The translations under genes and the position numbers were made by a program. Source: a bacterium (lineage in GTDB: Bacteria > Zhuqueibacterota > Zhuqueibacteria > Residuimicrobiales > Krinioviventaceae). Taken from it: a stretch of 64,000 bases of DNA. The stretch covers positions 2,528,001 through 2,592,000 of the forward strand of contig OY843751.1 in the NCBI GenBank assembly GCA_963693055.1. The letters are read 5' to 3'. Of the stretch, positions 24,238-54,508 are shown piece by piece. Numbering within the stretch: position 1 is the first letter of the stretch; the number at the start of each line of letters is the position of its first letter. The notes beneath the pieces were generated by a model. It had not been told where the DNA came from. It made no database searches and saw only the letters and a list, made by a program, of their open reading frames with translations.

Positions 24238-24253
24238 ATGGGTTTGATTTTAG

Positions 24254-26953: not shown

Positions 26954-27042
26954 ATAAAAAGGCGGATTGTATACCCACCTTTAGTTTAAAATTGAATACA
27001 ATGTTTTTAGATAAAAATTGTCAATGAACAAGAATCTTAAAG
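26954..27042 (-). promoter_or_regulatory. Putative CRISPR leader/promoter
   Basis: AT-rich; TTGACA on the minus strand at 27019-27024 followed by an imperfect -10. Confidence 0.4.
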
Positions 27043-28047: not shown

Positions 28048-28048
28048 T

Positions 28049-28963
28049 TTAATTCCTTATATTTCTTGAAAAGTTGTTCAATATTCTATCTTTAATAATT
28101 ACTGATGGATCTTCTCTGTTTATTTTTTTGATTTTCATTTGTTCCAAATCATTGATATCTAGCAATACTATCAATCGAACCTCATTTCTTATTGAATTGG
28201 AAAAGGCTTTCTGCATTAATCCCCAAATAGAGCTTTGATCTGTTGGTTTAAAGCGACATATTAATAAAGTTAATGGTACTTTTGTGAAAATGGTATCCTG
28301 AAAAAAAAGGGTGTATTTGAAGCATTGCATAAAATCATTTGGTTTCGGTTTTTTATTTTTTACTTCAACAATAATATTGTCAAAATAAAATCCTGTTTTT
28401 TCAATTGCATTGAAATGGTCAAATTTTTCATAAAAGCCATCGAAAACAATACCATTAACATTCTCTTGTTTTCTTTTCAAGTCATGTAAGTACAACATAT
28501 CTATAAATGTCAAAACTAACTTTTCGAATGGTTTTCCAAATTTTTTATCACCAAAATCGGAATTCAATATTTGATTAAATAAATATTCAAGTTGTTCATC
28601 GATTCTCACAAGATATTGTTCATATAAATTTATTAAATCATCAGCACTAGTCCGGATCGGTCCCATTATAGTCTTTGTTGATTTACTATTTGTTGTAAAT
28701 AATTGAATTTTTTCTTCAACATCGAGTAATTGTTTGTTGTGATTATCTATACGTATATTGGGATTATTAAAATAATTGAGATTTTCAAATAAAGGTTTAA
28801 GGATTACTGGTGTCCTTAAATCGTACAACGATGAAAGTTTTTTTAGAGATTTCGAGAGCTTTTCATCGAGTTTATCTTTCAAATCTAAAATCTCTCTTTG
28901 AAAATCTTTTTCTAAATCATAAAGTGGGGCTAAATCGTTCTCTCTGTCGTCAATCATATTCAT
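28049..28963 (-). CDS. Helical N-domain + Mrr-like PD-(D/E)xK nuclease
   Basis: GKPFEKLV...FDG...IIVEVKN...QCFKY pattern. Confidence 0.65.
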   Translation of the reverse strand: MNMIDDRENDLAPLYDLEKDFQREILDLKDKLDEKLSKSLKKLSSLYDLRTPVILKPLFENLNYFNNPNIRIDNHNKQLLDVEEKIQLFTTNSKSTKTIMGPIRTSADDLINLYEQYLVRIDEQLEYLFNQILNSDFGDKKFGKPFEKLVLTFIDMLYLHDLKRKQENVNGIVFDGFYEKFDHFNAIEKTGFYFDNIIVEVKNKKPKPNDFMQCFKYTLFFQDTIFTKVPLTLLICRFKPTDQSSIWGLMQKAFSNSIRNEVRLIVLLDINDLEQMKIKKINREDPSVIIKDRILNNFSRNIRN

Positions 28964-28972
28964 ATTTACTTG

Positions 28973-29908
28973 TTATACTATAAATGATAGACCATATCTA
29001 TGAATAGTGTGTACATCTAAAAATAGATCAGGGGTTACGTTTACAACCTGGCCATTTATGGGTTTAGTAAATATTGATCCCTCTGCCACCATTTTGCATT
29101 CTTTTCTTTTTAATTGAACAGAAGTTGAATATGAATGGAACCAGCCTCTTCTATTCAAGATTTTGAATGAATTCAAATGAACAGCCTCATTATTCTTGGG
29201 TGAACAGAGTGATAAGTTGATGTATGTTCCTTTTGGTTTTTGTTCCAATAATTCTTTCCATCTGGCTTGATTGTCAATTTGAGTCATTTTATAAATAAAG
29301 TGCCCATTACCTACACTTCTATCACCACCCAATCCTTCTTCTGCCAAGAGATTTAAACCAACAGTAAATAATTTAATAAATTCACTATCATTGATCTCGA
29401 CAATGAAAAATAATCCTGCACCGTATTTAAAGGAAAAACCGAATGATTCATATAATTGTGTAACTGTCGATATTCGATCAATTGTAACACGTGGACGAAA
29501 AGTTGGAAACATTATCTCGTTTAGGGGGTCGTTAAATTCTCTGGACAATAACGAATTTTCATCATTAATAATTGTTTTGAAATCGTTCAAATCCAAAAAA
29601 TGAACATCTTTTAATTTGGATTGATAAAAGTTTGATGTTCCCCTTGGTGTGGGCAAATAAAATGTATTGCCCATGTATGGAAAAGCAGAGGTCAAGCGGA
29701 AGGGAGGTGTCTCCGAATTTAATTTTTTTATCAATACTTTAATCCAATTGTTATATCTATTACATTCGGGTAGCCTCATCCATTGGCTCACCAATGCGCT
29801 AAACAGGGTGTCGGAGTGAATGATGCCCTTAAACTCATCATCATCTGATAACAAGCTTGATGACAGGGTTAAAGAACGCTTGAAAGAAAGTTTAATAAGC
29901 CAAAACAC
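28973..29908 (-). CDS. csm4: Type III-A RAMP Csm4 (Cas5 group)
   Basis: IHSDTLFSAL, LTSAFPY..YLPTP, RPRVTIDR, GLGGDRSVGNG; GTG 29908 after GGAGG. Confidence 0.92.
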   Translation of the reverse strand: MFWLIKLSFKRSLTLSSSLLSDDDEFKGIIHSDTLFSALVSQWMRLPECNRYNNWIKVLIKKLNSETPPFRLTSAFPYMGNTFYLPTPRGTSNFYQSKLKDVHFLDLNDFKTIINDENSLLSREFNDPLNEIMFPTFRPRVTIDRISTVTQLYESFGFSFKYGAGLFFIVEINDSEFIKLFTVGLNLLAEEGLGGDRSVGNGHFIYKMTQIDNQARWKELLEQKPKGTYINLSLCSPKNNEAVHLNSFKILNRRGWFHSYSTSVQLKRKECKMVAEGSIFTKPINGQVVNVTPDLFLDVHTIHRYGLSFIV

Positions 29909-30785
29909 TGCTGCTTGCCTCCTTGAGAAAATTGATGATTTCATCAATATAGCTGCGCGCTTGTTTGATATCAAAGGATTCACTTTGTAATTCTGTTGAA
30001 TTTTTTTCATCATCCCCGGTGTAATAATAATCGAGTGAACGGGCAAAAAAACTGGAAAAATTAAATTTAATTTTTCCGTATCCACGGGATGAATACCCAC
30101 CTAAAGCTTCATCTTCAATAATACTCATAGCGGCGAGTATATTTTGAAGATCTTTTTTGACTGTTTCAGCGTTAAATCTAATGTCCTTGTTTTCTTTTGA
30201 AATAATTTCTACAGCATAGATCATTTCAAAATTGAAAATACTGTCAGGCAAGACCCTTTCTACGCGACGTGGATTTGCAGACATATCCTTACGATCAATA
30301 CCGGTTTCGGTTTTTACTTCTGTAAATTCTGTTTGTTGTGTAATAATACTTGAATCCAACAAACAATCTCGAACTAATAGAGCAGAAGGCATATTTTCAG
30401 CTTTGGGTTTTTTTACCAGTTTTGATCTATCATCTCCACTCGATCCAAAAATCCTGCATACATCGCAGGTAATAGCAAGGTCGAAATCTTCACAACAGTG
30501 TATGTTTACTTGGTTGCGAAATGTCCCAATGTTACGGTTGTTTTCCAATTTTTCAATTTTCCCATTAACACTACGTGTTCCAACTTTCTCTACAGTACTA
30601 CGCAATTTACCCTTTAGTGAACTACCCGGTATGTAAGGCAAATTACTTGCGCTATCCCTGATAATTGGTAAATCCACACCGCCAATTTGCATAGATTCAT
30701 TTGAACCACCGATATGTAAGCCTGTTTTTATGACGATATTTCCTTGAAAGTATATTTTACCCAATAACAATCTTTTTTGTGTCAT
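29892..30785 (-). CDS. csm3: Type III-A RAMP Csm3 (Cas7 group)
   Basis: TGLHIGG, GGVDLPIIRD (catalytic D), PYIPGSSLKGKLR, CDVCRIFG, LGGYSSRGYG. Confidence 0.95.
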   Translation of the reverse strand: MTQKRLLLGKIYFQGNIVIKTGLHIGGSNESMQIGGVDLPIIRDSASNLPYIPGSSLKGKLRSTVEKVGTRSVNGKIEKLENNRNIGTFRNQVNIHCCEDFDLAITCDVCRIFGSSGDDRSKLVKKPKAENMPSALLVRDCLLDSSIITQQTEFTEVKTETGIDRKDMSANPRRVERVLPDSIFNFEMIYAVEIISKENKDIRFNAETVKKDLQNILAAMSIIEDEALGGYSSRGYGKIKFNFSSFFARSLDYYYTGDDEKNSTELQSESFDIKQARSYIDEIINFLKEASSSVLAY

Positions 30786-30806
30786 TTTAGATACTCCCTG
30801 TTATGA

Positions 30807-31322
30807 TTAATCCCTACCACCATGAAATTTGTGATATGCTACTACAGATTCGACGAATTTGCACAACATTTCATAATCCTCTATAGTATATATAAAATCA
30901 AAAAGTGGATTAATTACTTCAAAAAATGGTGTTACTTCTTTATTCTGTCTGGCCCTTGCGTTTGCAAGTTGTGGTTTAAGTAGAAAAATTTCTGGTTTGA
31001 TATTCCTTTCGAATAATTCTTGTGAATTTTCTTTTAATTTTACAGCTATAGTCCGTGCCTTGATATTTATCATGCTTTCATAAAAGCGCCTTAATTGAGC
31101 AGATTTTAGCCTAATGTCAGGGCTGGCGAGAATTTTTCCTAAAGCATAGCTACAAACCACTAACTTCTCGCCAGTTAAGATTTGTGCTAATGAAACTGCG
31201 CTTTCATTTTTTCCTATAATTTTATCAAGAATATTTCTTGCCTTGTGAAGGTTCCATTCCCTTGATAATCTCTCTTCAATAGGTTCATAATTCATTATGA
31301 TTCCCTCCTGATTTCGTAACAT
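30807..31322 (-). CDS. csm2: Type III-A small subunit Csm2 (Cas11)
   Basis: SAQLRRFY, LLKPQLA, FVESVVAYHKFHGG. Confidence 0.93.
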   Translation of the reverse strand: MLRNQEGIIMNYEPIEERLSREWNLHKARNILDKIIGKNESAVSLAQILTGEKLVVCSYALGKILASPDIRLKSAQLRRFYESMINIKARTIAVKLKENSQELFERNIKPEIFLLKPQLANARARQNKEVTPFFEVINPLFDFIYTIEDYEMLCKFVESVVAYHKFHGGRD

Positions 31323-33636
31323 AAATACACCATGTCAATGGAATATGCATGGATGCAAATTTTTCCAGATCATATATATGAAAATAATTTAAAGACCTTT
31401 CGTTCAAGTCTTTGTTTTGTCTCAACTTTTCTGACATTTTTGTCAATAGCCAAATTATCTGTGGGAGGTATAGCATCCCCTCATTATACCAGGTTTGTAA
31501 TAATTTTAATGCAACCTGAAAAAAGTGTCGGGGTATGCGTGCATTATTCAAATCTAATAAAAGCTGTAGAGGCTCAACGACAAAGTTTTGTATTTCATTG
31601 GTGAATGATTTGGATGTTGAATTGTATTTGTTACTTTTTAAGGCAAGTTCTAACCGTTGGTAATTTTGTACTTGCCTTATCTTAAGCTTTTCGGTTATTG
31701 ATTTTTTCCAATATTGATACTGATCAGTAAAAAAAGGGGTTAAAGATGATTTACGCAAGCAAGAGCCATCTTTGAACAAAGGGCATGTAAAGAATTCCTG
31801 GCGGCATGTCCAGCAAGGCTGCAAATTGTTTTTTGCTTCGAGTAAAGCATTCATAGAGATATGAGCCATTTTATTGATTGGATATTTTGAATGGTGTACA
31901 GTAAAACCTCCACTTATTCCGATATCGATATTATTGCATACGTACTGTTCAAAGGTTTGTGTTATCTCCAGGGAAAGCTGAGCAACATCATTCCAAGCTC
32001 CAATGACAAATAAATCGTCTCCACCAGCATAGATGACTTGTAAATTTTTTTTAGATCCTTCTGGATTTAAAAATGAATAGCTTTTATTGGTTTTACTGCA
32101 TAATGCATTCAGAAATAATTTGAAATAGTAATTCAGATTTCGGGAAAGGTTTGACAGGCTTTCAAAAGTTAAATTATTGCCAAATCCTTTTTGCATGATT
32201 TTTCCCAGGTTGTCAACGTCCATACGCAATCCTGCAACATATTTCACACCTGTTGCAGTTTGAGAAAGCAAATCTATTCCTGCAACACTATCATCTCTAA
32301 GGGAGGCAAGAGCTTCTTCCAGGTACTTTTTATCAGCCAATTCAATTTGAGCTTGAAGAGCAATCTTTTCTTTTTGAATTTCCTTTTTTATTGCATCGGG
32401 CATGTCTTTGATTTTTCTTAAATAAGTTTTACTGTAAACAGGCAGAGTATGCTCAGATAACTCATTTATGATATCAAAAGAGCCTTGATAAATAATGAAT
32501 TTTAGATTACTGTTATCCTCTTTTCCATCACTTAGTTTATAATATTTTTCGTCAATTTGTATTGAATCAGAGCTTTCATTGTCTGTTGCATATATATATT
32601 TGACATTTGGTATCTTGTTGCCTAGTTTTGACAATTTATCACAAAAAGGACATCTTGCTAATCCTGCTTCTTCATCGAGTATGAGGTTTGCCTTTGTATC
32701 GTCTCTGGTACAAATATCACAATGCATAAAATGTGGGTCATTTTTATCTATCCATTCAAACTCGCCTTGTTCAATTAGGCTTTTGAATTTTGCTTGTTTT
32801 TTCTCAAAGATTTTTAATGAAATTTGGTTTAATAACTCATCCAAATTGTTCTCGATTTGAGTTTCCTCACACTCAATAGCATCTATAGACACATATAAAA
32901 TTCCGTTAAATTCATTATATAACCATTTGTTGATTCTGTAATCAATTTCATTAATAAGTTCTTTATAATTTTCAGGTTTACTTGCATAAAAATAAATACT
33001 TCCCCCGCCATTCATAAGCACATTGACTTGGTGAAGATTGAATTTCTCCATAACTGTTTCAATTAAATGCCAAGATAATAATTCAATATAAAATGATCGT
33101 GCCCTTAAATTTTTCAATGCACCGCTGGATGTGATATTATAAATGAAATTTTGTATTCCGGAAAGGTCAACATTGATTAATAAATTTCCATTATGATTAT
33201 GGTGTGTCGCATTGTAATCAATTACAGCTTTAGCGGCTTTGATTTTATATGCATCGTAAATTGAAATATTTTCATTTTGTTGTGCAGGTAGATTCCCTCC
33301 ATACATTTCTAAAAGGAAGAAAAGTTGAGAGCAATTTAATGATTCAAGATATGATTGATCAAATGCCTTTACATTAGTTGCAATGTCCATTATAAATTGC
33401 TGTTTTTCGGTATCAAACATCTGGTCTTGTTTGAGTTGAGGATAATATGGCTCAAATGTTAAACGATATGGAGGTACGTAATAAGGACTGTCTTGATCAT
33501 CTTTAAAACTTACTAGATTAAATATAGATCGCAAATAGTTGGGTGTAGATTGTTCACACCAGCTTTTTATCTCTTCAAGTCCTTGAATAAATGTTGGTTT
33601 TAATATATCATTCAAATCCAAATTAATTACCTCCAT
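31285..33636 (-). CDS. cas10: Cas10/Csm1 lacking the HD nuclease domain, with intact cyclase Palm
   Basis: DLSGIQNFIY, LRARSFY, CDIC/CPFC, MDVDNLG, IYAGGDD; starts close to the post-HD LRSIF motif. Confidence 0.93.
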   Translation of the reverse strand: MEVINLDLNDILKPTFIQGLEEIKSWCEQSTPNYLRSIFNLVSFKDDQDSPYYVPPYRLTFEPYYPQLKQDQMFDTEKQQFIMDIATNVKAFDQSYLESLNCSQLFFLLEMYGGNLPAQQNENISIYDAYKIKAAKAVIDYNATHHNHNGNLLINVDLSGIQNFIYNITSSGALKNLRARSFYIELLSWHLIETVMEKFNLHQVNVLMNGGGSIYFYASKPENYKELINEIDYRINKWLYNEFNGILYVSIDAIECEETQIENNLDELLNQISLKIFEKKQAKFKSLIEQGEFEWIDKNDPHFMHCDICTRDDTKANLILDEEAGLARCPFCDKLSKLGNKIPNVKYIYATDNESSDSIQIDEKYYKLSDGKEDNSNLKFIIYQGSFDIINELSEHTLPVYSKTYLRKIKDMPDAIKKEIQKEKIALQAQIELADKKYLEEALASLRDDSVAGIDLLSQTATGVKYVAGLRMDVDNLGKIMQKGFGNNLTFESLSNLSRNLNYYFKLFLNALCSKTNKSYSFLNPEGSKKNLQVIYAGGDDLFVIGAWNDVAQLSLEITQTFEQYVCNNIDIGISGGFTVHHSKYPINKMAHISMNALLEAKNNLQPCWTCRQEFFTCPLFKDGSCLRKSSLTPFFTDQYQYWKKSITEKLKIRQVQNYQRLELALKSNKYNSTSKSFTNEIQNFVVEPLQLLLDLNNARIPRHFFQVALKLLQTWYNEGMLYLPQIIWLLTKMSEKLRQNKDLNERSLNYFHIYDLEKFASMHIPLTWCIYVTKSGGNHNEL

Positions 33637-33640
33637 ATAG

Positions 33641-34627
33641 TCATTCTGTAATAGTTACTCTTATTTTCCCCAACCCAAAACTTGTCCCTTTGCCGATGTG
33701 GAGGACCTGGCTCTGCAGCAGAAGGGGAGTGAATCCATTTATGTTGCCGGCAAGAAGGATATCGCCGATAAAGCCGCCGATCTCCATTTTTGTGTTTTGC
33801 CGGGAGCTGTACCGGTGCCAGTCCTGCCATTTCAGATGCGGGTCCATAATTGCCACTTCATTTGCCTGGACAAGATAGGGGTGGAAGTGCCAGTCGATTT
33901 CATTTTCCGGAGCGTAGAAATGCGCGAGCTCTAAAAGGCGCCGGAGCATTTTAAACACCAACAGTCGGAAAGAGAAATCCATTATATATTGGTCTTCGTA
34001 TTTTAATCGGGTAGGCGTGAGAAACCGGACTTGAACCTGGTCGTGCTCCGAATCCTCATAGTGCGGATGAGTGGGGATTGCCTGGGCGCAGAGGGATTCA
34101 GTTTCTCCTTTGTAGATCAGTGTTTCGGTAAAAGTGTTTTCTGCCAGGGAATGTTGTTCCGGATTTATCCAATAAACATTATGGAGTTGGAACGGCAATC
34201 GCTTTGATGAAAGTCCCCGTTTGGCCATGAGACTGATGGAGTAAATAATGTATGGATAAAGCGCTCCAATATTACCGAGGAGCGTCAGGGTAAAGCTGAA
34301 CGTATCGCCCTGGGCATACTCGGTTTTTTGATCAAAAGCGTCTATGATGTATGGCCGGGGAGAGGTTGGTAATTTGCTTAAAAAGGGCGGAGGGGTTCCC
34401 TCGACATAAGTCTCAAAAATTTTTGTGTAGGTACACTGGCTCCGGAACAGGCAGGATTGACAGGATTCCTGTTTTTTCTGAATGCAGACAGTCCGTTTTA
34501 ACGCACTGCCAAATGCTCCCCTCAGCATGGATCCCTTAATCCTGGGCAGTGTGCATACCTGTTCGGCCTGAAGAACGAATTTCAGTTTCAAATAGGGAAT
34601 AATAGGAAGACAGTAATCCACGGTCAT
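33641..34627 (-). CDS. cas6: Cas6 crRNA-processing endoribonuclease (Cys-cluster type)
   Basis: GSMLRGAFG, CI..CQSC....C, FLTPTRL, HIGKGTSFGLG glycine-rich loop. Confidence 0.93.
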   Translation of the reverse strand: MTVDYCLPIIPYLKLKFVLQAEQVCTLPRIKGSMLRGAFGSALKRTVCIQKKQESCQSCLFRSQCTYTKIFETYVEGTPPPFLSKLPTSPRPYIIDAFDQKTEYAQGDTFSFTLTLLGNIGALYPYIIYSISLMAKRGLSSKRLPFQLHNVYWINPEQHSLAENTFTETLIYKGETESLCAQAIPTHPHYEDSEHDQVQVRFLTPTRLKYEDQYIMDFSFRLLVFKMLRRLLELAHFYAPENEIDWHFHPYLVQANEVAIMDPHLKWQDWHRYSSRQNTKMEIGGFIGDILLAGNINGFTPLLLQSQVLHIGKGTSFGLGKIRVTITE

Positions 34628-34975
34628 ATCCCTTTTGTAAAAGATAAATGATAGTATTATTCAAGATGATTCAAATATAAAACTGCCCCAAAACAGTTCA
34701 GTTGTCCCACCAGTAACTGTTAAGGATATTCAAAATATAGAACATTTTAAAATATCAAATTCCGCCCATGGCACAATTGTGAGTCCGTGTAATTGTATAT
34801 AAGCATTTTCACAGTAAAGGTCAAGATGAAAATAAAAATTTTTCGAGTTTAGTGGTTTTATTGTGCAAGTGATCAGTATTCGGTTATCAGTTTTCAGAGC
34901 CGCCAGGGGTCCTTTTGTATTCCATGTTTTTGTATAGAGCTGACAGCTATTAGCTGATAGCTAACAGCTTGAAGC

Positions 34976-35008
34976 CAATCCCATCGTATTGATTAGGTCT
35001 ATTTACAG
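34976..35008 (-). repeat. Solitary CRISPR repeat (type B, lacking the last 4 nt)
   Basis: caatcccatcgtattgattaggtctatttacag is identical to array-2 repeats. Confidence 0.9.
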
Positions 35009-35772
35009 AGAAATGCATGGTTCTTTACTATGAGGTAGAGAAGGGTAGCGGCTTTTTCTTCAAAGCTGGGGTACAAATCCCTGTCTCCCAATGACTGACG
35101 GATTTGAGTGATAGCACTCTTGAACCCGTCACCCCGTTCATGTCCAAATACAGAGGAGTTAAAATCGCTTCGCATTTGATCAATAACGGCCATATAGTCT
35201 TTGTATGCCGGGTAGACAACGGATTTTTCCGTTTTACCTTTTTTATCCAGGGATTCATGATCATAATCGTCTAAAAGTTTCAGACCCTCTGCATACAAAT
35301 TTAACCAGTCGTAATCCTTGTTCGATGCTTTTTGCTCTATAGCCCGACTTATAATATGAATTCCATCCTTAAGATGTTGAACTTCTTGTTGTTTCTGTGC
35401 CAGTCTTTTTTCATTGATGGTATACCCTTGTACTAACAATTCTCTCAATCTTTTAGTTGCCCATTGACGGAATTGAGTACCTCGTTGTGACTTTACTCGA
35501 TAACCAACTGATATTATGACATCAAGATTGTAAAAAGCCACAGGTTTATCTGAATTTGCAATATGCATTTTTTGCATATTGCTTTTTTTTTCAAGTTCAT
35601 TTTCTTGAAATATATTATTCAGATGGCGGGAAATCACTGATTGATCTCGTTGAAACAACTGTGTTAATTGCTCCTGATTGAGCCAAACTGTATCCTCATT
35701 AAAACGAACTTCAACAGCAGTTTCGTTATCATTTGTTGTATAGATTTCAATTTTGTTTTCAGTATTATCCAT
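34999..35772 (-). pseudogene. RhuM-family protein fused to Fic/Doc, truncated at the Fic motif
   Basis: YNLDVIISVGYRVKSQRGTQFRQWAT (RhuM); LYPSFEEKAATLLYLIVKNHAF then CRISPR repeat. Confidence 0.88.
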
Positions 35773-35865
35773 TATGTGTCTTGTAAGATTAGAGTCGTGA
35801 TGAATGAGCCGTACATACAAGGTTATTTAACAAACTATTTGGAAACATTCAAGGGTATTTTGAAA

Positions 35866-37296
35866 CAGGGTACCCCCGATTTTTTTATTCGAGGGCCAAA
35901 AATAATTGATTTTTGTCACCGGCATGATTATTACACTTTAATTTTCTGAGCTTTATATTGGGTAAAATGATCCTTAATGCCTTTGCCAGTTTATAATAAA
36001 CAAACCCAATAAACTCGTTTAATTTCCTTCTATACACCAACGGAGCTTGAGATTGATCTAAAATATGTAAACAAATATTATCCAAATGACAATAGATAAA
36101 ACTCATGACATTCCAAAACAGGGCATTAAAATTTTTTAGCGCAACATACCTTTTAAGGCAAATGTCTTCAAGATGATAATCATTTTTTATTTGACGATGT
36201 ACCTCTTCAATTTTCCACCGGTAACCATAGCCTTCCATGGTAATCTCTATGGCCTCACGTTCAGTCTCTGCCGGTATAAAGCTTAAAAACCAGCTTTTGC
36301 CTTTGCCAGGTTCAGTGACTGAAATCAGCCATAATCCGGTGTTCATTGGGCCATCCCCATACTGCTTTGGCAGATATACCTTACGGGCACCGCATTGAAA
36401 ACATCGCTTTATCAGCCTGTTCCGGCGTTTTTTCTGCACGGTAATTTCAGTACTGGGACGGATTTTTTCGGCATATTTCTTTAAATTCTTCTTTACTCCT
36501 TGAACAAATATATCCCGGTACCCGGTTTGCCGTATTATAAAGTGTTGTTTTTGCTTAATCCATTTGTTCATCAGTTTGCTACGATCACCTCCGCGATCAT
36601 AAACAACTATCTGTTCTCCATGAATATGTTCTCGAATCGTGTCCACGGATTCGAGGATTTTCTTGTTCTCTGAAATACCTTTGCCTTCTTCCTGATCCGT
36701 CGCCCAAAGCGTACTCACCAGCGGCATGATGGATGTACCGGTTTTATCAACTCCAATGATATTCAGTTGCCAGTATCCATTCCCTAGTTCTTTGGTACTA
36801 CCATCATAAACACGATCAAGCCCTTCCATCTTTTCCGCATAAGGCTTGATTATATCACTCATATCTGCTATCAAGTATTTCGAATCCGAAAACCTTCTTT
36901 TGTTTATTTTCAGATGACTAATGGTTAATTCTCTGTCAAATCCTGGGCGGCCCAAGTGGCTAGACATTCGTTCTGTTGTCTTTTTTAGGCTCGTCTCTTC
37001 CTTTAGGGTTGATGCGATTTTATTTAAATGTACATGCCCGGAGCAAAGTATCCCATAATGCATGTCTCTGATAAATTTATAGTCCGGTCGGTTGAATTCT
37101 GCTTGATATTTCGCTGTCACTTGATTAAGTTTTACTTGGACTCGTTTTGTGATGTCCATGGGTTGCCTCCTATATTATGGTCTGTCAACTATAATGAGGC
37201 AACCTTTTTTTATTTTTACAAGCTTTTTTTGCTTCTATCTCCATTATTTTTTATTACTTACAGTAATATGATTTGTGATTTTTCGGGGGTGTCCTG
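35866..37296 (-). mobile_element. IS4-superfamily insertion sequence
   Basis: IRs cagggtacccccga / tcgggggtgtcctg; 10-bp TSD tattttgaaa at 35856-35865 and 37297-37306; ggttgcctc...gaggcaacc hairpin covers the RBS. Confidence 0.92.
35885..37159 (-). CDS. DDE transposase (IS4 superfamily)
   Basis: IADMSDI, YDRGGD, YGYRWKIEEVHRQIK. Confidence 0.92.
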   Translation of the reverse strand: MDITKRVQVKLNQVTAKYQAEFNRPDYKFIRDMHYGILCSGHVHLNKIASTLKEETSLKKTTERMSSHLGRPGFDRELTISHLKINKRRFSDSKYLIADMSDIIKPYAEKMEGLDRVYDGSTKELGNGYWQLNIIGVDKTGTSIMPLVSTLWATDQEEGKGISENKKILESVDTIREHIHGEQIVVYDRGGDRSKLMNKWIKQKQHFIIRQTGYRDIFVQGVKKNLKKYAEKIRPSTEITVQKKRRNRLIKRCFQCGARKVYLPKQYGDGPMNTGLWLISVTEPGKGKSWFLSFIPAETEREAIEITMEGYGYRWKIEEVHRQIKNDYHLEDICLKRYVALKNFNALFWNVMSFIYCHLDNICLHILDQSQAPLVYRRKLNEFIGFVYYKLAKALRIILPNIKLRKLKCNNHAGDKNQLFLALE

Positions 37297-37332
37297 TATT
37301 TTGAAAGGGGGAATACATTTTGTGTGAAAAAT

Positions 37333-37674
37333 AATCCCATCATAGTTAATAGGTCTTTCCAGTCCATTATCATGGATAAAATGTCAGGTCGTTCAAAAGG
37401 TTTTGGGTCTCAATCCCATCATAGTTACCAGGTCTTTTCCAATCTTGTTTGAGGGGCTCCTGATCTTGCAAAAACTTATGGTCTCAATCCCATCGTATTG
37501 ATTAGGTCTATTTACAGTAGGCTATTTCGAACAAGACGGCCAGACGCGAGCACAATTGTTGTCTCAATCCCATCGTATTGATTAGGTCTATTTACAGCTA
37601 TTAGATAAAGAGGGTAGTATGAAAAAGAAAGCTGGAATAGTCTCAATCCCATCGTATTGATTAGGTCATTCCAC
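37333..37674 (-). CRISPR. CRISPR array 2: 5 repeats / 4 spacers, hybrid of repeat A and repeat B (CTGTAAATAGACCTAATCAATACGATGGGATTGAGAC)
   Basis: Repeats at 37333 (partial A), 37407 (A), 37481, 37561, 37640 (B). Confidence 0.92.
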
Positions 37675-37861
37675 GTGAGACGTGAAACGTAAGACGGTAA
37701 ACGATCTTTTGACCTTGCGAAAATGTCAAAGAACGGGGGAGTTGTCAGTCATCGGTTATCAGTTTTCAGAACCACCCGGGGGTTCGTTGTATTCCATATT
37801 TCTTGAGCTGAGCGTCAGTCGGTCCCTGAGTAGACCGCCGCCAGGCGGACGTACCGAAGGG

Positions 37862-37894
37862 CAATCCCATCGTATTGATTAGGTCTATTTACAG
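37862..37894 (-). repeat. Second solitary type-B CRISPR repeat
   Basis: Identical 33-mer to 34976-35008. Confidence 0.9.
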
Positions 37895-38262
37895 TCAATC
37901 AGATTGGATATTACATCATAACCGCATTTGTGTCATTTGTTCTCACCAACCTGGGATGGATACTATTCAAAAAGGACAAGACAGAACCGGTTGAAAAAGA
38001 CCATCTTGACCATCCTTGTCAAAAAATTCTGATATTGGAACAGGATTTTAAGAACCACAAAGATGTGGTCAAGAACCGGATTGATTTGAATGAACGTCGG
38101 TTGAACGCACACGCGAAAGACCTGGATGTATTGCGGGAAACCATCGTGAGACAGGAACAGAACAATAACCATCTGAACGAGAAAGTAGATGAAATCAAGG
38201 CCGAGATTAGTAAAATAACAGATTTTTTATACAGTGGTAAATGGAAATCGGTTAAGTCATGA
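37895..38262 (+). CDS. Phage-like TM + coiled-coil protein (holin/hemolysin-like), probably 5'-truncated by the repeat
   Basis: Open frame NQIGYYIITAFVSFVLTNLGWILF starts right at the repeat junction; coiled-coil tail. Confidence 0.5.
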
Positions 38263-40837
38263 GCAACCAGGTACTGAAAATCACCCACGTTAAAGGCCTG
38301 GTGACCCACGCTGATCCGCAGGACATACCGGTGGATGCTGTGAGCCGTTTGGCCAATCTGCGGCCGGTAAACGGTAAACTGGTGCGGACATTCGGATACG
38401 GACAGAACTTTTCCCGGGACCGGCTGGCAGTACTGCGTCAGGAGGGCAAAAGCGTATACTGGGACGATTCCAAAGTGTGGGACGATGGTGACTATTGGCT
38501 GGACAATACCGACATTGATGAAAGCCTGGGCGATCCTTTTGACCATGTCATTGTATTTGAAAACCGTAACCTGGGCTACTGTCCTTATGCCACCGGTGAA
38601 GGTTATGTTATTATTGCCTATCTGGTGGATACGGACACCGGCCTGGTGACCTTGAAGTACTGGGACGGGGATTCCTGGGAACTGTTGGCATCCACCGGTT
38701 TGATGGTCAATGCCCTGGGCAGTTATTACCACCATAAAGGCAACAATCCGGTCATTCTGCACAACGAGATATTGAGGATTTTACCGGGAGCAACCGGCAA
38801 GATCAACGGTAATAACGCCGAAGGCATCTGGATCGGATATATAGACCGGGATATCTTTGACGAACACTATACCGCAGGGACATCGGAAGAAGTGAGTGAA
38901 GAGACCGCGGATTATGTCAAAGGCTTTTACAATTACAGCAACAGCGTACCGGCGCCGGATATCTCTGCATCCGGATTGGACCCGGTATTGACCGATGAAC
39001 CGACCGGCGGCAGTCTGAACCCGGACGGGAATGAACTGGTCTATTTTTACAGGTTATCCTATGTCTATGACGGGGTAAACGAAAGTGCCTTGTCCGAGAC
39101 CCTGTCCAAATCTTTTAAACAAAACACATTTTTGAAAATGGCTTTGACCTTTACCAAAGCCGAACACAATAAACGTATCACCGCAGTAAAAATTTATCGA
39201 AGCAGCTATGCCGATGCCGGATTTCAGCAAATCCACACCCTGGACTTGACCCGCAAGACCGATAAACTGAAAAGCGTGGACGGTATGGCCAGCGGCCTGA
39301 GCCGGTTTTACATCCCGGGACTGGCCTATTATAATTTCGATAATACCGAAAGCTACCGAATCGGTGTCCGGGTACCGGGCGATACCGGCGCATTCACCTA
39401 TAACGCCATCTCACCGCCAAGCGGTACCGGTAATGTCATATTTGTAACATCCAGTACCCTGAGCGGGGATTACTGGGACTATGAATGGATCCTTGAATAT
39501 TATGACGCCAGCTGGGTGCCAATTGACAGTGGTACATCCGGTGTGTTTGCCGGTACCCATACCTTTATATCCACAGAAGTTGACCTTGGTAATGAAAACC
39601 AGGCCGGAGGAATACTGTACTGGCCATCCATTGCTTACGAGATCAAGGAATCGGTGAACCGTGCCATCCGAATATACATTGCCATACATATACCTATACC
39701 GACCAGACCATGAACATTTACTCCATTACAACCGGTTTGTACTGTTATTATAAATATCCGGGAGTTGGCAAAGAAGTACTGTACTTTTTTGATACCGGGC
39801 TGTTGGCCGGTGAAGCGCATCCTTATGCAACCGAGGTTTCCAACAAGGTCAACGGTAAATTTGCCATCTATGCGTACGGCAGACTGTTCCAGTACAGTGT
39901 AGTGCTTGACCCGGATTACAAACAGGAAGTGCATATGGACTAGCTGACCTTTTCCGAACTGGGACAACTGGATGTAACACCCGTCGGTAATGCCATTGTG
40001 CCGCCGGACCGCACCGGTGGAGCCGGTACCGGTATGGCTATGGCTTTTGGTTCCATTATACTGATGAAAAAACAGGCCCTGTTCCGGCTGGACATCAACG
40101 ATCCCGCTGATCCGGTAACCTGGTCCATCAAGGAAGCCAATTTCAGCCGCGGCAATGTCGCGAAAAAATGTTTTGTGCAGGTAGGTGAAACATTGTACAT
40201 CTGTTCCCATGACGGCATCTATTCAATCGACCTCAATGTACTGACCGCGGCAGACGAAACCCCGATGCTGCATAACCGCATATCCGAAGACATCAATGAT
40301 ATATACATGTCTCTGAGCGATTCCTCCGAGAAACCTTACATCTCTGCCGGATATGATCCGTTTCACAGCGAGATCGTGTTCCAGTTAAAACCCGGACAGA
40401 CCTATGCTTACAATATCCTGGAACAGAGCTGGCGCCAGAGCGATACTGACGCGGACATGGCCCTGGCAGTCAATGACCAGGACGGCAACCTGTTGATTGT
40501 GGACAATACCCGACAGCTGCTGTTGTCACCGGTGGTGAAAGAGGAAAGCGGGTTCTGTGTGCGCAGCAAGAACGTTCTGCTCTCATACGAACGGGCCAAA
40601 GTGGTGCGTTACGTCAAGGTGCGGTACCGGTCGGAGGAGAAACTGATCATCAATCTGTACGCCGATGGTAACACCGAAACCCCGGTGAAAAGCGGGACAC
40701 TGTCGGAATTGTCCGAACCCGGCTGGAAAGGTGTGTCGCTGCGGTATTATTGTCATTCATTTTACATTGAAATCTGTTCCGAGAGCGAGGGCGTCCCGGA
40801 AACCGAAATATATGAAATCGTTGTTGAACACGATTAA
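38259..40837 (+). pseudogene. Phage tail/stabilisation (nozzle-like) protein, broken by a frameshift near 39700 and an in-frame TAG at 39941
   Basis: ORFs 38259..39713, 39710..39943 and 39998..40837, the last two in one frame; NLRPVNGKL, YRLSYVYDG..ES, IKIYRS, FSELGQLD motifs typical of podovirus-like tail proteins. Confidence 0.65.
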
Positions 40838-40851
40838 AGGAGATTTTAACC

Positions 40852-41526
40852 ATGGCCGATGGTGATATAACCAAAGATTTATTGAGTGAACTGGCATTAC
40901 AGCTTGAAGACGCGGACGAAGTGAAATTTACCCAGGCTGCCAAGCTCCAGGCCCTGAACCGCTCACAAGTGAGGGTGGCCCAGATGCTGCACGACGCCTA
41001 TTTGACTGAATTCCAACATGTGGATGAAGACGTGGACGCATCATCCAGGATCATTGATATATCTCAATTAAACGAGGGAAAAGGCGTTTTCAGGGGTGGA
41101 GAAGGCATTGTCCGGGTGCGGATCAAGATCGGTGGTGATGACGCAAAATTGAAATGGGCCACGGAACTGGATTTTAAAGAGGACATCAAGCGCACCCAGA
41201 ACACGCTATTGGCCGGATCGGATACCAATCCGCTGTATTATGTGTTTAATGGGCATATTTATATTCTGGTGTCCACCTATGACGAAACTACTGCCAATGT
41301 GTACTATTTGCAAATGCCGCCAAACATGTCAGAGAGTGTTGATCCGATCCTGAATCCTTCCTTACACCAGATACTGCTGGACCTTGCCGAATCCATCTGC
41401 TGGAAAATGGACAATCAACATAACCGCAGTGCAGAGGCCCGCACCAGTGCTTTTGAAGAGATTAAGGTTTTGAACGGCCGGTACACCAATCCCGAAGGCA
41501 TCGGCACAAGCAGCCGGAGGAGATAA
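40852..41526 (+). CDS. Putative phage head-tail adaptor / tail tubular protein
   Basis: ALNRSQ..., PLYY, YYLQMP...PILNPSLHQILLDLA pattern; strong RBS; phage context. Confidence 0.6.
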   Translation: MADGDITKDLLSELALQLEDADEVKFTQAAKLQALNRSQVRVAQMLHDAYLTEFQHVDEDVDASSRIIDISQLNEGKGVFRGGEGIVRVRIKIGGDDAKLKWATELDFKEDIKRTQNTLLAGSDTNPLYYVFNGHIYILVSTYDETTANVYYLQMPPNMSESVDPILNPSLHQILLDLAESICWKMDNQHNRSAEARTSAFEEIKVLNGRYTNPEGIGTSSRRR

Positions 41527-41531
41527 ATCGC

Positions 41532-42305
41532 ATGGACCCCATTACAATCGGCGCATTGGTCAAAGGCGGCAGTGCTCTCGGCAAATACGCCTATAACAAA
41601 TGGTTCAACAAACAGAAGAATTTTGATGATACCCCGGGCGGCCGTCGAATGAAACTGCTGGCCAAAGAAGGAGTGTACAATCCCCGCGTCACCCGCACTA
41701 TACTCGGACAGGTGGGCAAAGCCACCGGCAGTACTGCCCAGATTGCCAAAACCAACCTCAAAGGTAATTTGATCGCCAGCGGTATGGAAAACAGCATTGC
41801 CGGACAGGGACGTATAGCCAGTATCGACAGCCAGCGTATGGAGAAAATAGGGGACGTGGCTGCCGATCTGGCCACCAAAAACGAAATGTCCAAAGTGGAA
41901 GCGCAGGACAAATACACCATGGCCAAACAGGGATACCAGGACAGAATCAAAGCCATGGAACAGGAAAATACCGGCAACCTGGTGAGCGGACTCATCAATA
42001 CCGCGGGCAGTTATGTCATGGGCAAGGCACAGCAGACCGGTATGGAAAATATTGATTTTTCGGATCCTTCTTCCCTGACCCAGTGGGTTGCTTCACAACC
42101 TGACCAGGCCAAAGCCATGTCCCAGCTCCGGGACCTGGCTTATTCCAGTTATTACGGCGGTAAAGGCGCCAGTGCGGTGAGTGAACAGGACATATTGGGA
42201 CTGCTACAAAAAGACCCGGCAAGGGCCGGACAGACCATACAGATTTTGAATGAACTGGGCATGCTGCCGAAACGGATACTGAACTATTTAAAAGCCGGGG
42301 AATAA
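41532..42305 (+). CDS. Putative internal virion / DNA-ejection protein
   Basis: MDPITIGALVKGG start, Gly/Ala-rich helical composition, position after tail genes. Confidence 0.55.
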   Translation: MDPITIGALVKGGSALGKYAYNKWFNKQKNFDDTPGGRRMKLLAKEGVYNPRVTRTILGQVGKATGSTAQIAKTNLKGNLIASGMENSIAGQGRIASIDSQRMEKIGDVAADLATKNEMSKVEAQDKYTMAKQGYQDRIKAMEQENTGNLVSGLINTAGSYVMGKAQQTGMENIDFSDPSSLTQWVASQPDQAKAMSQLRDLAYSSYYGGKGASAVSEQDILGLLQKDPARAGQTIQILNELGMLPKRILNYLKAGE

Positions 42306-42390
42306 CACACATGGCAGAGAAACTGGACCCGAAAAAGCTTGAGAAACTGGTCGGTCTGTTCCAGTCCCCGGTAGACGGCCTGGAGGCCGC

Positions 42391-42567
42391 ATGAAATACA
42401 AAGCCAGGGAAAAGCTTTCGGCGGTGGTGCGAGTATACGTATTGGGAGAAAAAGTCGCGGTCGTCTGCCGCGACTTGCACATCTCCCGCCAAACCTGGTA
42501 CCGCTGGGAAAAAGAGTTTCGCTCTGCAATTGGAAAGATTTGGGGTGGGCTGAAAAAGTTGAATTAA
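42391..42567 (+). CDS. Small HTH protein (transposase-type HTH), not in the ORF track
   Basis: GGAGG RBS; MKYKAREKLSAV...VAVVCRDLHISRQTWYRWEKEF; overlaps a 27-codon stub at 42311-42394. Confidence 0.6.
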   Translation: MKYKAREKLSAVVRVYVLGEKVAVVCRDLHISRQTWYRWEKEFRSAIGKIWGGLKKLN

Positions 42568-42717
42568 ATCAAATGGTTGAATAGAAAATCTGATTCCCTT
42601 TTTTATTTAAAATAATTCATATTTCAATTGCATGTTTCTACGAAAATACATTTATTAAAATATTCAAACATTAAACTGATACGGGGTATCTTGGGTGGAA
42701 AACTTTTATATGTTATG

Positions 42718-42783
42718 ACGATCTATACTCATGTACCTAACAATGGCGATTAAGGTATTCGCAGCCCAGTTGATGATCTGTAG
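42718..42783 (+). pseudogene. intI: Integron integrase C-terminal remnant
   Basis: Translates TIYTHVPNNGD*GIRSPVDDL*, matching the IntI end TMIYTHVLNRGG.GVRSPLD. Confidence 0.75.
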
Positions 42784-42969
42784 CAAAGTGTAATCTGGAA
42801 TACAAGTCGTATAACATAAAATTATGGTCATTGTTTTTTTATGATAACATCATGTTTTTATTGTAATTGAGTCAGAATATCGTGATTTGTTAAACGACAA
42901 GTATTTGCATTCTATAATTGGTTATCAAACTCGTTAAATACTATGTTAGAATGAAAAAGGAGAAATCGA

Positions 42970-43872
42970 ATGTCAGAGGACAATCAGAAAACTACCAAGT
43001 TCGATGCAGCAGCATCCAAACTCAGATCGGTGACTAGCGGAGCCCTGAGACTTACGGTTATCATTCTCTTTGCCGTCGTGGCATGGCGAATAGCTTGGTC
43101 GAATTTCAGTTTGGATCTCAGTAAATTCGATTTTACTGATCTTCTGGCTATGATTTTAGCTCTCTTTGCGATGGGGATGTCGGTGGCTTTTTACTTTAAG
43201 TCCACGGATTCAAGCAATCAATTCTACGACAACATTTACAATTTCACGCAAAAGACATCTGAAATTCTTGGCCGTATTGAAGAACGATTTGGTGAGCGAC
43301 TTAAGCATCTTGACGAAGGCTATGGGAGAATGCAGTCGCAGTTCGATGGAATTGCAAAGACACCAGGCGAGATTGAAAAGGAAGTTAAAGAAACAGAGGG
43401 AAAAGAAGAGCAAGAAAAAGAGAAGCTCGAAGAAGCCAAAAAGGCAATGCAAGAGATGATGGAGACGCTTGCTGAAAAAGCAAAATTACAGCAAAAAGAA
43501 AAAGAGGAATTCTACCAGAAGATGGGTGAACTCGCAACCGAGAGAGACTTGGCACAACAAAAACTTCGCGAGCTTGAAGAAGATCGTGACGGGATGAGGC
43601 AACAACTTCATATGATGGAGCGGGACATGATGGAGGATCCAGAGCTACATAATCCAATAGTAATGGAAATACTTCGTCACCCTGAAATACGACATCTACT
43701 TCGAGATGGTACTCCTGCCCGCATCATTCGAAGACAGGCTCAGCGTCTTTTTTCTGAGATGCCGATACAATTTCTCAAACAACTGCGCGAAGCCGGAATA
43801 ATCAACGAAAATAACGAGCTAACCACCGCTGGCGGGCTAATGCTGCGATCGATGTCACGACGATATAGATGA
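42970..43872 (+). CDS. Cassette 1: two-TM coiled-coil protein
   Basis: Two hydrophobic helices, long E/K-rich coiled coil; followed by attC. Confidence 0.75.
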   Translation: MSEDNQKTTKFDAAASKLRSVTSGALRLTVIILFAVVAWRIAWSNFSLDLSKFDFTDLLAMILALFAMGMSVAFYFKSTDSSNQFYDNIYNFTQKTSEILGRIEERFGERLKHLDEGYGRMQSQFDGIAKTPGEIEKEVKETEGKEEQEKEKLEEAKKAMQEMMETLAEKAKLQQKEKEEFYQKMGELATERDLAQQKLRELEEDRDGMRQQLHMMERDMMEDPELHNPIVMEILRHPEIRHLLRDGTPARIIRRQAQRLFSEMPIQFLKQLREAGIINENNELTTAGGLMLRSMSRRYR

Positions 43873-43944
43873 AGATTCTAACAAAGGCATCCACACGTAC
43901 GCGCGCCGGTGATGCCAGCCGTTAGCTTTTATGGAAGATAGACT

Positions 43945-44598
43945 ATGGAAATTGCTAAAATTATTCTAGAATACTTAAAGGTTACTATCTGGCCTATCAC
44001 AACCTTTATATTATTACTAATTTTCAAAAAAGATATTTGTAAAATTTTAATGCGATTGAAAAAAGCAGATTTACCTGGCGGTATATCTCTTGAAACATTT
44101 CCAGAACAAATTGAAGAAGCAAAATCTTTATTAATAGAAGTTAAGGAAGAAAAGAAAGAAGAAGATAAATTAAGAAAACAAATATATGCTACAATTCCAT
44201 TAACAGAAGCAAACGCAAAAATGATAACATTAGGTCTTGCACCATCACCTTCAGGTCTTGAACTTGATAAATACAAACAATTAGCTGAACGAGATCCAAA
44301 CTTAGCACTTGCAGGACTCAGGATGGAACTTGAAATAATGTTGAAAAATTTGGCAAAAGGCTATAAAATCAATATTAACAAAAGGGCTTCAACGACGAAC
44401 ATTACTAAGGAATTGAAAGAAAAAAATGCTATAACTAAAAATCAATCTGATTTAATACACACAATTATAAATTTAGCAAATGCCGCTGTTCATGGTGTTA
44501 AGGTTACAAAGTCTCAGGCCAATGATATCCTACAAATATCAGAAACATTAAGAGATCAATATATTAATTGGCTGAGTTGGGGCTTTACTGATAAATAA
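43945..44598 (+). CDS. Cassette 2: N-terminal TM + HEPN/DUF4145-like domain
   Basis: WPITTFILLLIFK TM; LRMELE...LANAAVHG (RxxxxH-like, R replaced). Confidence 0.6.
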   Translation: MEIAKIILEYLKVTIWPITTFILLLIFKKDICKILMRLKKADLPGGISLETFPEQIEEAKSLLIEVKEEKKEEDKLRKQIYATIPLTEANAKMITLGLAPSPSGLELDKYKQLAERDPNLALAGLRMELEIMLKNLAKGYKININKRASTTNITKELKEKNAITKNQSDLIHTIINLANAAVHGVKVTKSQANDILQISETLRDQYINWLSWGFTDK

Positions 44599-44758
44599 TA
44601 AAGCTAACAATTGTTTCCAGCGGATCGCTAAAGCGATCCACTAAATTCCACGTGGACGTGGAATTCGAAATACAACATTCGGGACGCTTGCTCTTGGCTC
44701 GCGACCGCTGAAACAGACGTTATAAGTAATCTCGAGCCTCGCGCAAAGGAGTATAAAT

Positions 44759-45318: not shown

Positions 45319-45403
45319 CAAATGCATGCACCGGAGCTTCCCGCCGCTGTCGCTCTAGGAACCCCGGTGATGCTGGTGTTAGGCTTTAACAGGGAGGTGG
45401 TTT

Positions 45404-54481: not shown

Positions 54482-54508
54482 GTTCTTGTTTTTTAAGGCT
54501 TTAAGTAG

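What the first reader, a model, noticed from the sequence alone, without database searches (positions are those of the whole stretch)
34976..37894. Two solo CRISPR repeats joined base-precisely to truncated genes
Seen: the same 33-mer at 34976-35008 and 37862-37894. In both, the repeat's 5' end (minus-strand sense) abuts a broken gene: the RhuM-Fic gene, and the N-terminus of the first phage gene. Established: a foreign-DNA/repeat-5' junction is what Cas1 integration creates. Inference: deletions made by half-site integration of a long DNA end, or by recombination between a self-derived spacer and its nearby protospacer, i.e. CRISPR-driven pruning of the prophage. Alternatively they are solitary repeat units making regulatory crRNA-like RNAs; one lies ~350 bp upstream of cas6.
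Basis: partly seen in the sequence, partly recalled or inferred. Interest (0 to 1): 0.7.

Follow-up and report, generated by a model that had tools for sequence, protein, structure and literature searches.

The report
Deletion scars ending at CRISPR repeats
Two CRISPR repeats in a decayed phage-and-immunity island sit right where one neighbouring gene is cut off and another probably is; they are likely scars of deletions set off by the CRISPR spacer-insertion machinery, a pattern already recorded in Salmonella and seen here in a different CRISPR type.

Summary
The 33-mer is real at both places: nt 1-33 of a 37-nt type III-A repeat (crRNA sense = minus strand). Only the first copy is solo. The second heads a six-repeat mini-array (37328-37894), linked by a 194-nt insert. 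RhuM-Fic is cut inside its Fic motif, within 2 nt of repeat nt 1; truncation of the phage gene is likely but cannot be mapped. Short-read contigs of one sample carry both junctions. The same gene|repeat-nt-1 junction occurs in 3 of 60 array 5' ends elsewhere (RT, clpP, NYN) and 0 of 66 3' ends (p=0.11). Salmonella has 23 deletion classes sharing a fixed repeat-side end (Fabre 2012). Best reading: leader-side deletions triggered during spacer integration by a since-lost adaptation module. Half-site integration and spacer-protospacer recombination cannot be told apart. A regulatory role is unsupported: 0 of 19 cas6 relatives carry the repeat, and no target was found. The missing last 4 nt mark heptamer-rich non-guide inserts, which are common in this repeat family (57 units, 6 with four-helix-bundle genes in relatives). 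This scan noted both patterns before on other DNA.

The parts
34976..35008 (-). Repeat copy 1: nt 1-33 of the 37-nt type III repeat. Cas6 hairpin (nt 12-29) intact, tag replaced after 4 nt. Truly isolated: the nearest other copy is 2.3 kb away.
34862..34975 (-). Insert X1: heptamer/REP-like palindrome plus the shared core. A 3'-truncated homologue of X2 and of four copies at the second array (G000 2797319-2798445).
   Evidence: nhmmer E 2.5e-31
34999..35772 (-). RhuM-Fic(Doc) gene, cut inside the Fic motif; about 60 C-terminal codons are lost and the stop codon comes from the repeat. Junction at 35008/35009, sense to the array.
35866..37297 (-). IS4-like insertion sequence, 1432 bp, with terminal inverted repeats and a roughly 10-bp target duplication; 4 copies in the genome. 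A later arrival, unrelated to the junctions.
37328..37894 (-). Mini-array of six repeats of two sequence types: four normal spacers (37-43 nt), one long insert and a degenerate last repeat.
37668..37861 (-). Insert X2 (194 nt): REP-like palindrome, shared core, heptamer tracts and a boxA-like motif (37724-37735). The next repeat starts at nt 10.
37862..37894 (-). Repeat copy 2: nt 1-33, first repeat of the mini-array. No leader upstream; joined directly to phage DNA.
37894..38262 (+). First surviving phage gene (hydrophobic N-terminal stretch, then a probable coiled coil), antisense to the array; start codon probably lost at the junction.
   Evidence: truncation inferred
27043..34627 (-). Type III-A interference operon: cas6, cas10 (profile match starts at position 91 of 753, so likely no HD domain), csm2, csm3, csm4, a 304-aa ORF with no family hit, and a CARF protein. 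No csm5, cas1, cas2 or RT here.
25448..26955 (-). Main type III array: 20 repeats, 19 spacers, a boxA-like motif upstream and a degenerate first repeat.
24127..54555 (.). About 30-kb island at tRNA-Met (direct repeats 24127-24176 and 54506-54555; integrase 24254-25321) holding the CRISPR locus, a prophage tail remnant and defence-type genes. Absent at the same site in the same-genus genome G001.

Best explanation
Both repeats are remnants of type III CRISPR arrays, and each likely lost its leader side in a deletion that began as a spacer-integration event, leaving nearby chromosomal DNA joined to the first base of a repeat. Inferred steps: the locus once had the RT-cas1-cas2-leader module that relatives carry upstream of this repeat family. 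Cas1-Cas2 joined the 3' end of DNA from a gene a few kb upstream to repeat nt 1. This was either a one-ended (half-site) product that host repair resolved against the chromosomal copy, or a completed self-derived spacer that later recombined with its protospacer. The DNA in between was lost: at 37894 the leader, probably the adaptation genes, and the phage head module; at 35008 the 3' end of RhuM-Fic and a leader. Ordinary repeat-repeat spacer loss then left only the repeat in front of a heptamer-rich non-guide insert, whose flanking repeats keep the Cas6 hairpin but lose the tag (upstream) or nt 1-9 (downstream). Shown: the junctions, the RhuM-Fic cut, the insert layout, the absence of a cognate Cas1 and the recurrence in other genomes. 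Inferred: Cas1 as the cause, the order of events and which sub-route was used.
For: RhuM-Fic homology ends within 2 nt of repeat nt 1. Three further junctions at an intact repeat nt 1: a CRISPR-associated RT cut at profile position 106 of 353 (L021; 0-7 nt unassigned, 0 if one T of a homopolymer slipped); clpP cut at 119 of 192 (L022, also in L235; at most 1 nt unassigned); and a NYN gene that lost its N-terminus, antisense (L174; 0 nt). A break landing at random in a 40-nt spacer leaves 2 nt or less three times with a chance of about 4e-4. Polarity: 3 of 60 listed 5' ends against 0 of 66 3' ends. In L021 the scar removes exactly the RT-cas1-cas2-leader stretch that intact relatives carry. [quoted passage not shown] One-ended insertion is the most common Cas1-Cas2 product in vitro, and longer substrates favour the leader-repeat junction (PMC8390005 passages). 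Host-like spacers exist in this family: one matches a cas gene and one matches G000 about 1 kb inside its 16S rRNA gene, among 1484 spacers. An intact related phage has terminase, portal and capsid genes upstream, and these are absent from G000.
Against: The 5'/3' asymmetry is not significant on its own (Fisher p=0.105), and degenerate last repeats make the 3' control imperfect. Two unassigned nt at the RhuM junction are not predicted by a clean strand transfer. The phage-side breakpoint cannot be mapped. No parent allele or matching spacer was found. No cognate Cas1 is present now. Several other leaderless arrays in the survey (L183, L187, L213, L253, L255) abut gene ends or intergenic DNA, where precision cannot be judged. 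The island has other deletions that ignore repeats. The in vitro paper used 26-33-nt substrates, not long DNA. The Salmonella coordinates are given on one reference genome and the paper assigns no mechanism.
Confidence: 0.58

Rival explanations
1. Cas1-independent decay: ordinary deletions or repeat-mediated exchanges in a decaying island happened to stop at repeat edges. Repeat-repeat recombination then trimmed the arrays to one repeat plus its trailer.
For: The island is riddled with lesions: an IS insertion, a 941-aa phage gene split into 484 and 279 aa, a giant protein cut to 517 aa, no csm5. Three repeat types are mixed within arrays, which shows inter-array recombination. Shmakov et al. 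judge type III mini-arrays to be degraded repeats. The asymmetry has p=0.105.
Against: Repeat-repeat recombination cannot create a gene|repeat junction from scratch. Three junctions elsewhere map within about 1 nt (RT within 7 nt) of nt 1, and RhuM within 2 nt. Salmonella deletions share one fixed end.
Confidence: 0.22
2. The repeat plus heptamer insert is itself a mobile unit. A Cas6-released RNA (tag, insert, next hairpin) would be reverse-transcribed by the CRISPR-associated RT, and its insertion would have made the junctions.
For: At the second array, inserts carry a type-B hairpin behind a type-C repeat, which fits a cut-site-to-cut-site unit. 57 such units occur in 30 loci, up to ten in one array. 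Six hold a TIGR02436/PF05635 gene with weak similarity to Avd. RT genes lie next to this repeat family.
Against: Unequal crossing-over in the shared repeat end gives the same mosaic. Such a unit would begin at nt 30 or nt 10, not nt 1. The RT and clpP junction repeats are followed by normal spacers. The Avd scores are below cut-off. The window's inserts have no ORF and do not fold as one hairpin (z -1.1 to +1.8).
Confidence: 0.08
3. The repeats are kept as solitary repeat units or mini-array guides that regulate the cas operon or decoy Cas proteins (crlRNA, CreR, Racr).
For: Copy 1 is isolated, lies 349 bp upstream of cas6 on the same strand and keeps the Cas6 hairpin. Both copies lie in a mobile island.
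Against: 0 of 19 cas6 homologue loci have a repeat upstream on the sense strand (17 with about 1.5 kb read, 2 with less). No flank matches the cas6 upstream region, the operon or the island better than shuffles (42-200 of 200 shuffles as good). The tag is broken. Type III binds RNA, not promoter DNA (established knowledge). Shmakov et al. found no conserved position or target for type III mini-arrays.
Confidence: 0.06
4. The junctions are assembly errors at a repeat.
For: The repeat (33 nt) is longer than the contig word size, so short-read contigs cannot say which 5' flank goes with which 3' flank. All three runs are from one sample, possibly the source.
Against: Contigs in all three runs join each gene to 28-30 nt of repeat, and no alternative continuation is listed. 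The genome is one 6.5-Mb contig. The clpP junction appears in two records.
Confidence: 0.04

Closest known systems
Salmonella 'deletions of the Cas machinery' (Fabre et al. 2012, PMC3356390; passages and Table 3 read)
   Same: The deletion starts at the leader-side edge of a repeat and ends at a variable point in an upstream gene; the leader and adaptation genes are lost; it recurs independently.
   Different: Here the system is type III-A with an RT-associated repeat family, not I-E. The far ends lie in non-cas genes (RhuM-Fic, a phage gene; clpP and NYN elsewhere) and on either strand. Two scars lie 2.9 kb apart, and the arrays are reduced to one repeat plus an insert.
Cas1-Cas2 one-ended (half-site) integration (PMC8390005; passages read)
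   Same: A 3' end is joined to repeat nt 1 at the leader-repeat junction without a second join.
   Different: Shown only in vitro with short substrates of a type II-A integrase. Resolution into a chromosomal deletion was not shown in the passages read.
CRISPR self-targeting that remodels islands (Vercoe et al. PMC3630108; type III-A SCCmec deletions, PMC5687920; passages read)
   Same: CRISPR-linked partial loss of an integrated element.
   Different: Those deletions arise at the target by excision, microhomology or IS recombination, far from the array; in the passages read they do not end at a repeat.
Standalone repeats and regulatory mini-arrays (crlRNA, SRU; Shmakov et al., 10.1101/2023.03.03.530964; passages read)
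   Same: Isolated repeats near cas genes, inside a mobile island.
   Different: No conserved position, no promoter match, broken tag and an RNA-targeting effector. This fits that paper's 'degraded' type III class.
ORF-bearing 23S rRNA intervening sequences (PF05635/TIGR02436; PMC4990558, abstract and outline read); the name STRR for cyanobacterial heptamer repeats is recalled
   Same: In relatives the array inserts are long hairpins, six of them with a four-helix-bundle gene in the loop, placed in a non-coding RNA that is processed around them.
   Different: They sit in CRISPR arrays and would be released by Cas6. The arms are heptamer runs. The window's own inserts have no ORF and are composite, not one hairpin.

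Membership tests
Leader-side repeat-edge deletion scar (Fabre 2012 type) | Non-leader DNA joined to repeat nt 1 on the leader side | tested here: met
   Both copies begin at nt 1 with gene DNA upstream; 2 nt unassigned at RhuM
Leader-side repeat-edge deletion scar (Fabre 2012 type) | Upstream gene truncated | tested here: met
   RhuM-Fic 257 against about 317 aa; the phage gene is inconclusive on its own
Leader-side repeat-edge deletion scar (Fabre 2012 type) | Leader and cas1/cas2 missing | tested here: met
   No leader upstream of either copy; the only Cas1 is type I-B; the one RT is 1.9 Mb away
Leader-side repeat-edge deletion scar (Fabre 2012 type) | Deletion defined against an intact parent allele | tested here: inconclusive
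   No relative with this locus among 60 other genomes or in metagenome contigs; G001 lacks the island
Leader-side repeat-edge deletion scar (Fabre 2012 type) | Made by Cas1 | not testable with these tools
   Needs a deletion assay with active and dead Cas1
Normal Cas1-Cas2 spacer unit | 30-50-nt insert between two full repeats | tested here: not met
   X2 is 194 nt between nt 1-33 and nt 10-37 copies; the gene side has no second repeat
Regulatory crlRNA / SRU / Racr | Repeat stands alone outside an array | tested here: inconclusive
   True for copy 1, false for copy 2
Regulatory crlRNA / SRU / Racr | Position conserved in related loci | tested here: not met
   0 of 19 cas6 homologue loci
Regulatory crlRNA / SRU / Racr | Spacer-like part complementary to a cas or cargo promoter | tested here: not met
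   Longest matches 6-11 nt, at shuffle level
Regulatory crlRNA / SRU / Racr | Discrete RNA made and bound by Cas proteins | not testable with these tools
   Needs small-RNA sequencing and pull-down
IVS-like heptamer-armed four-helix-bundle cassette | Heptamer tracts | tested here: met
   8 of 109 period-7 tracts of the genome lie in 4.1 kb of type III array regions; 0 for periods 5, 8, 10 and 11 (tandem copies are not independent)
IVS-like heptamer-armed four-helix-bundle cassette | Mirror arms folding as one long hairpin | tested here: not met
   Own-genome inserts z -1.1 to +1.8, whereas 31 of 50 units overall have z below -2
IVS-like heptamer-armed four-helix-bundle cassette | TIGR02436/PF05635 ORF in the loop | tested here: not met
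   None in X1 or X2; present in units of L074, L145, L206, L216, L226 and L262

The most novel reading that the evidence does not exclude
The CRISPR adaptation machinery is a site-specific deletion mutagen. One-ended integration of chromosomal DNA, or of RT-made cDNA, at repeat nt 1 removes kilobases of upstream DNA, including its own genes and resident prophage modules, and here it struck twice in one island. In the same RT-associated type III family, arrays are colonised by heptamer-hairpin/four-helix-bundle units that Cas6 releases as non-guide RNAs and that may spread with the CRISPR RT.
Probability: 0.3. Interest if true: 0.75.

Novelty: new variant of a known kind. Interest (0 to 1): 0.5.

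Why it matters
If spacer integration itself causes these deletions, it explains a long-recorded but unexplained way in which CRISPR loci lose their leader and cas1/cas2 (23 Salmonella deletion classes with a fixed repeat-side end). It would also add a cost of adaptation: the integrase can delete its neighbours, including prophage genes. The type III cases show that the pattern is not peculiar to I-E and reaches non-cas genes on both strands, and they suggest a simple selection assay. The heptamer inserts give a natural read-out of which repeat bases Cas6 needs, and a place to test how four-helix-bundle cassettes move. As a single locus, this one is a dead remnant.

Tried and rejected
Parent allele: DNA search of 60 relatives found only the IS, RhuM fragments and other arrays; an exact pattern covering the three own repeat types found 0 metagenome stretches; the family pattern gave 3 single chance-like hits in viral contigs. 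Homologue of the first phage gene: only itself, no PHROG; the next gene had no hit in 124 other class genomes. Spacer equal to a junction: none among 1484 spacers against masked loci or G000 (hits inside 2553000-2566000 were filtered from the genome search, and loci covered only part of that stretch; the output was cut). Regulatory targets: none. Promoter scan: 18 sites against 10.7 +/- 3.2 in shuffles; one minus-strand site spans junction 2, not taken as evidence. Expression: no RNA holder listed. Tandem prophage integration inferred from the 359-bp duplication at 23571-24155: rejected, because G001 has the same tRNA-like tandem repeats without the island. Homologues of the X core outside G000: none better than E 0.018 among fetched loci. 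A resemblance of the X core to the I-B repeat was seen by eye and dropped as too weak. Literature: 10 searches. None listed a paper on heptamer or four-helix-bundle inserts in CRISPR arrays, or on Cas1-made chromosomal deletions. The library lacks most subscription papers, and supplements were not read (the Shmakov supplements list type III loci and may bear on this).
Full report
Observation. The 33-mer is present at 34976-35008 and 37862-37894. It also stands at 37485 and 37565 and at G000 2797904. On the minus strand it is nt 1-33 of a 37-nt repeat. The best-folding repeat type forms a hairpin over nt 12-29 followed by an 8-nt tail (z -2.8); the type at issue forms a weaker bulged version. 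Both copies keep the hairpin and the first four tag bases and lose the last four. Copy 1 is isolated. Copy 2 is the first repeat of a six-repeat mini-array (37328-37894) and is joined to it by a 194-nt insert, after which the next repeat starts at nt 10.

Setting. The repeats lie in an island of about 30 kb at tRNA-Met, bounded by direct repeats and absent from the same-genus genome G001. The island holds an integrase, a 20-repeat array, a type III-A operon without csm5, cas1, cas2 or RT, RhuM-Fic, an IS4-like element with four copies in the genome, the mini-array, and phage tail genes interrupted by defence-type genes. The only Cas1 of the genome serves a type I-B array with a different 30-nt repeat. 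An intact related phage (L138, 38-49% identity) has terminase, portal, scaffold and capsid genes upstream of the gene that follows junction 2 by one ORF; none has a match in G000, and its 941-aa gene is split in two here. The prophage is a remnant with several lesions, only one of which ends at a repeat.

Junctions. RhuM-Fic has 257 aa; most of the 120 listed homologues have about 317 and continue through the Fic motif. The residue after KNHxF is V, T, I, M or A in 116 of 116 homologues that keep the motif, never the Leu read here, so 2 nt before repeat nt 1 are unassigned. The phage gene has a hydrophobic frame open to the junction, a stop inside the repeat and no ATG, but no homologue; its truncation is inferred. 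Short-read contigs from three runs of one sample join 28-30 nt of repeat to each gene, with no listed loose end there. They cannot pair the 5' and 3' flanks across the repeat; that rests on the single-contig assembly.

Recurrence. Of 60 distinct 5' ends with at least 200 nt upstream (by eye about 16 are internal breaks at IS elements or long units and one is not CRISPR), three run from a cut gene straight into an intact nt 1. They are a CRISPR-associated RT (L021/L045, sense), clpP (L022/L094, also L235, sense) and a NYN gene that lost its N-terminus (L174, antisense like the phage gene). Five more ends are leaderless without a mappable gene. Of 66 3' ends none showed a Pfam domain cut at the repeat. 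The difference is not significant (p=0.105), but the precision is notable: at most 1 nt for clpP, 0 for NYN, 0-7 for RT and 2 for RhuM. In L021 the scar removes the rest of RT, cas1, cas2 and the leader that intact relatives carry. Fabre et al. 2012 (PMC3356390; passages and Table 3) list 12 and 11 Salmonella deletions that share one repeat-side coordinate and end at scattered points in or before cas3, with no mechanism given.

The insert. Both repeats are followed by related sequence, X1 and X2, with four more close copies at a second, cas-less array of G000. X is a mosaic of heptamer and REP-like tracts that occur between genes across the genome, a core found only beside these repeats, and a boxA-like motif (consensus recalled; boxA upstream of arrays is reported in PMC7862264 passages). 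Among 1570 distinct inter-repeat units, 1485 are normal and 85 long; 57 long units in 30 loci (overlapping loci not merged) are heptamer-rich, against 23 of 2000 joined-spacer controls. In 50 of 57 the next repeat differs at three or more of nt 1-9 (30 of 1485 normal units), and in 25 of 57 the preceding tag is altered (14 of 1485). 31 of 50 folded units have z below -2, but the own-genome copies do not. Six units hold a four-helix-bundle gene (TIGR02436 or PF05635). So the missing four bases are a signature of these non-guide units: the repeat keeps what Cas6 needs to cut and loses what a guide needs (inference). I had formed this reading (note) before seeing that the scan had noted such cassettes, once in an array.

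Mechanism. Best reading (0.58): adaptation-triggered deletion. Cas1-Cas2 joins DNA from a nearby upstream gene to repeat nt 1; repair against, or recombination with, the chromosomal copy deletes what lies between; later spacer loss leaves one repeat and its insert. One-ended insertion is the main in vitro product and longer substrates favour the leader side (PMC8390005 passages). Host-like spacers exist in this family: one matches a cas gene and one the 16S rRNA region, among 1484. At junction 2 the upstream 40 nt are antisense to a phage late gene, as a type III spacer would be; at junction 1 they are sense, which a type III system would tolerate. Neither sub-route can be excluded. Rivals: Cas1-independent decay (0.22), a mobile repeat-insert unit (0.08), a regulatory RNA (0.06) and artefact (0.04). 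The regulatory reading fails two tests: 0 of 19 cas6 homologue loci carry an upstream repeat, and no flank matches the operon or island above shuffle level. Shmakov et al. likewise call type III mini-arrays degraded (passages). PMC6990116, PMC3630108 and PMC5687920 (passages) describe self-targeting deletions that arise at the target, not at the array.

Verdict. Real, partly as described. It works like the Salmonella leader-side scars and is a new variant of them: type III, non-cas genes, both strands, two in one island. It is not a regulatory repeat by the tests run. The locus itself looks dead. The interest lies in the testable claim that spacer integration deletes neighbouring DNA, and in the heptamer units, for which ten literature searches listed no paper. 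Interest 0.5.

Noticed in passing
L039, L045, L074, L110, L145, L166, L181-L184, L188, L194, L195, L206, L209, L213, L216, L221, L226, L231, L233, L234, L253, L255, L262, L267: Type III arrays of this repeat family carry many 109-200-nt heptamer-hairpin units and 467-674-nt units with a four-helix-bundle gene, interspersed among normal spacers (ten in L255). The hairpin base often closes exactly between the tag and nt 10 of the next repeat.
   Followed up: partly
L001:9295-11027 (G000 2797294-2799026): Second type III array with a leader but no cas genes within about 9 kb on either side. It has five long inserts, two repeat types, a duplicated spacer and a first spacer antisense to a pentapeptide-repeat-like coding sequence.
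   Followed up: partly
window 27043-33636: The type III-A operon lacks csm5 (only one RAMP hit in the genome), Cas10 seems to lack the HD domain, and it ends in an unassigned 304-aa ORF and a CARF protein with a nucleoside-deoxyribosyltransferase-like C-terminal domain. Possibly signalling-only, or dead.
   Followed up: no
window 42970-48421: A block of lower-GC genes (DUF4145, RibD-like, DUF3800, GmrSD, unknowns) replaces most of the phage's giant LPD38 protein gene, leaving a 517-aa C-terminal piece.
   Followed up: no
window 23571-24176 and L319: Tandem degenerate copies of the tRNA-Met 3' half lie downstream of the tRNA: two here, five extra copies in G001. A host feature, not a product of this island.
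   Followed up: partly
spacer of L145 vs L138:1887-1914; spacer of L211 vs L191:1643-1681; spacer of L260 vs G000 4559619-4559655: One spacer matches the terminase gene of the related phage (27/28, antisense), one a cas RAMP gene of a sister system (36/39) and one the 16S rRNA region (36/37), which hints at host-RNA capture in RT-associated systems.
   Followed up: no
L175, L123, L200, L211, L176: Several IS elements sit inside arrays of this family, some ending at or a few bases from repeat nt 1.
   Followed up: no
window 37869-37898 (minus): Junction 2 creates a promoter-like -35 hexamer from phage and repeat bases (9 of 12 matches). It could drive the leaderless mini-array, but the score is at chance level.
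   Followed up: no
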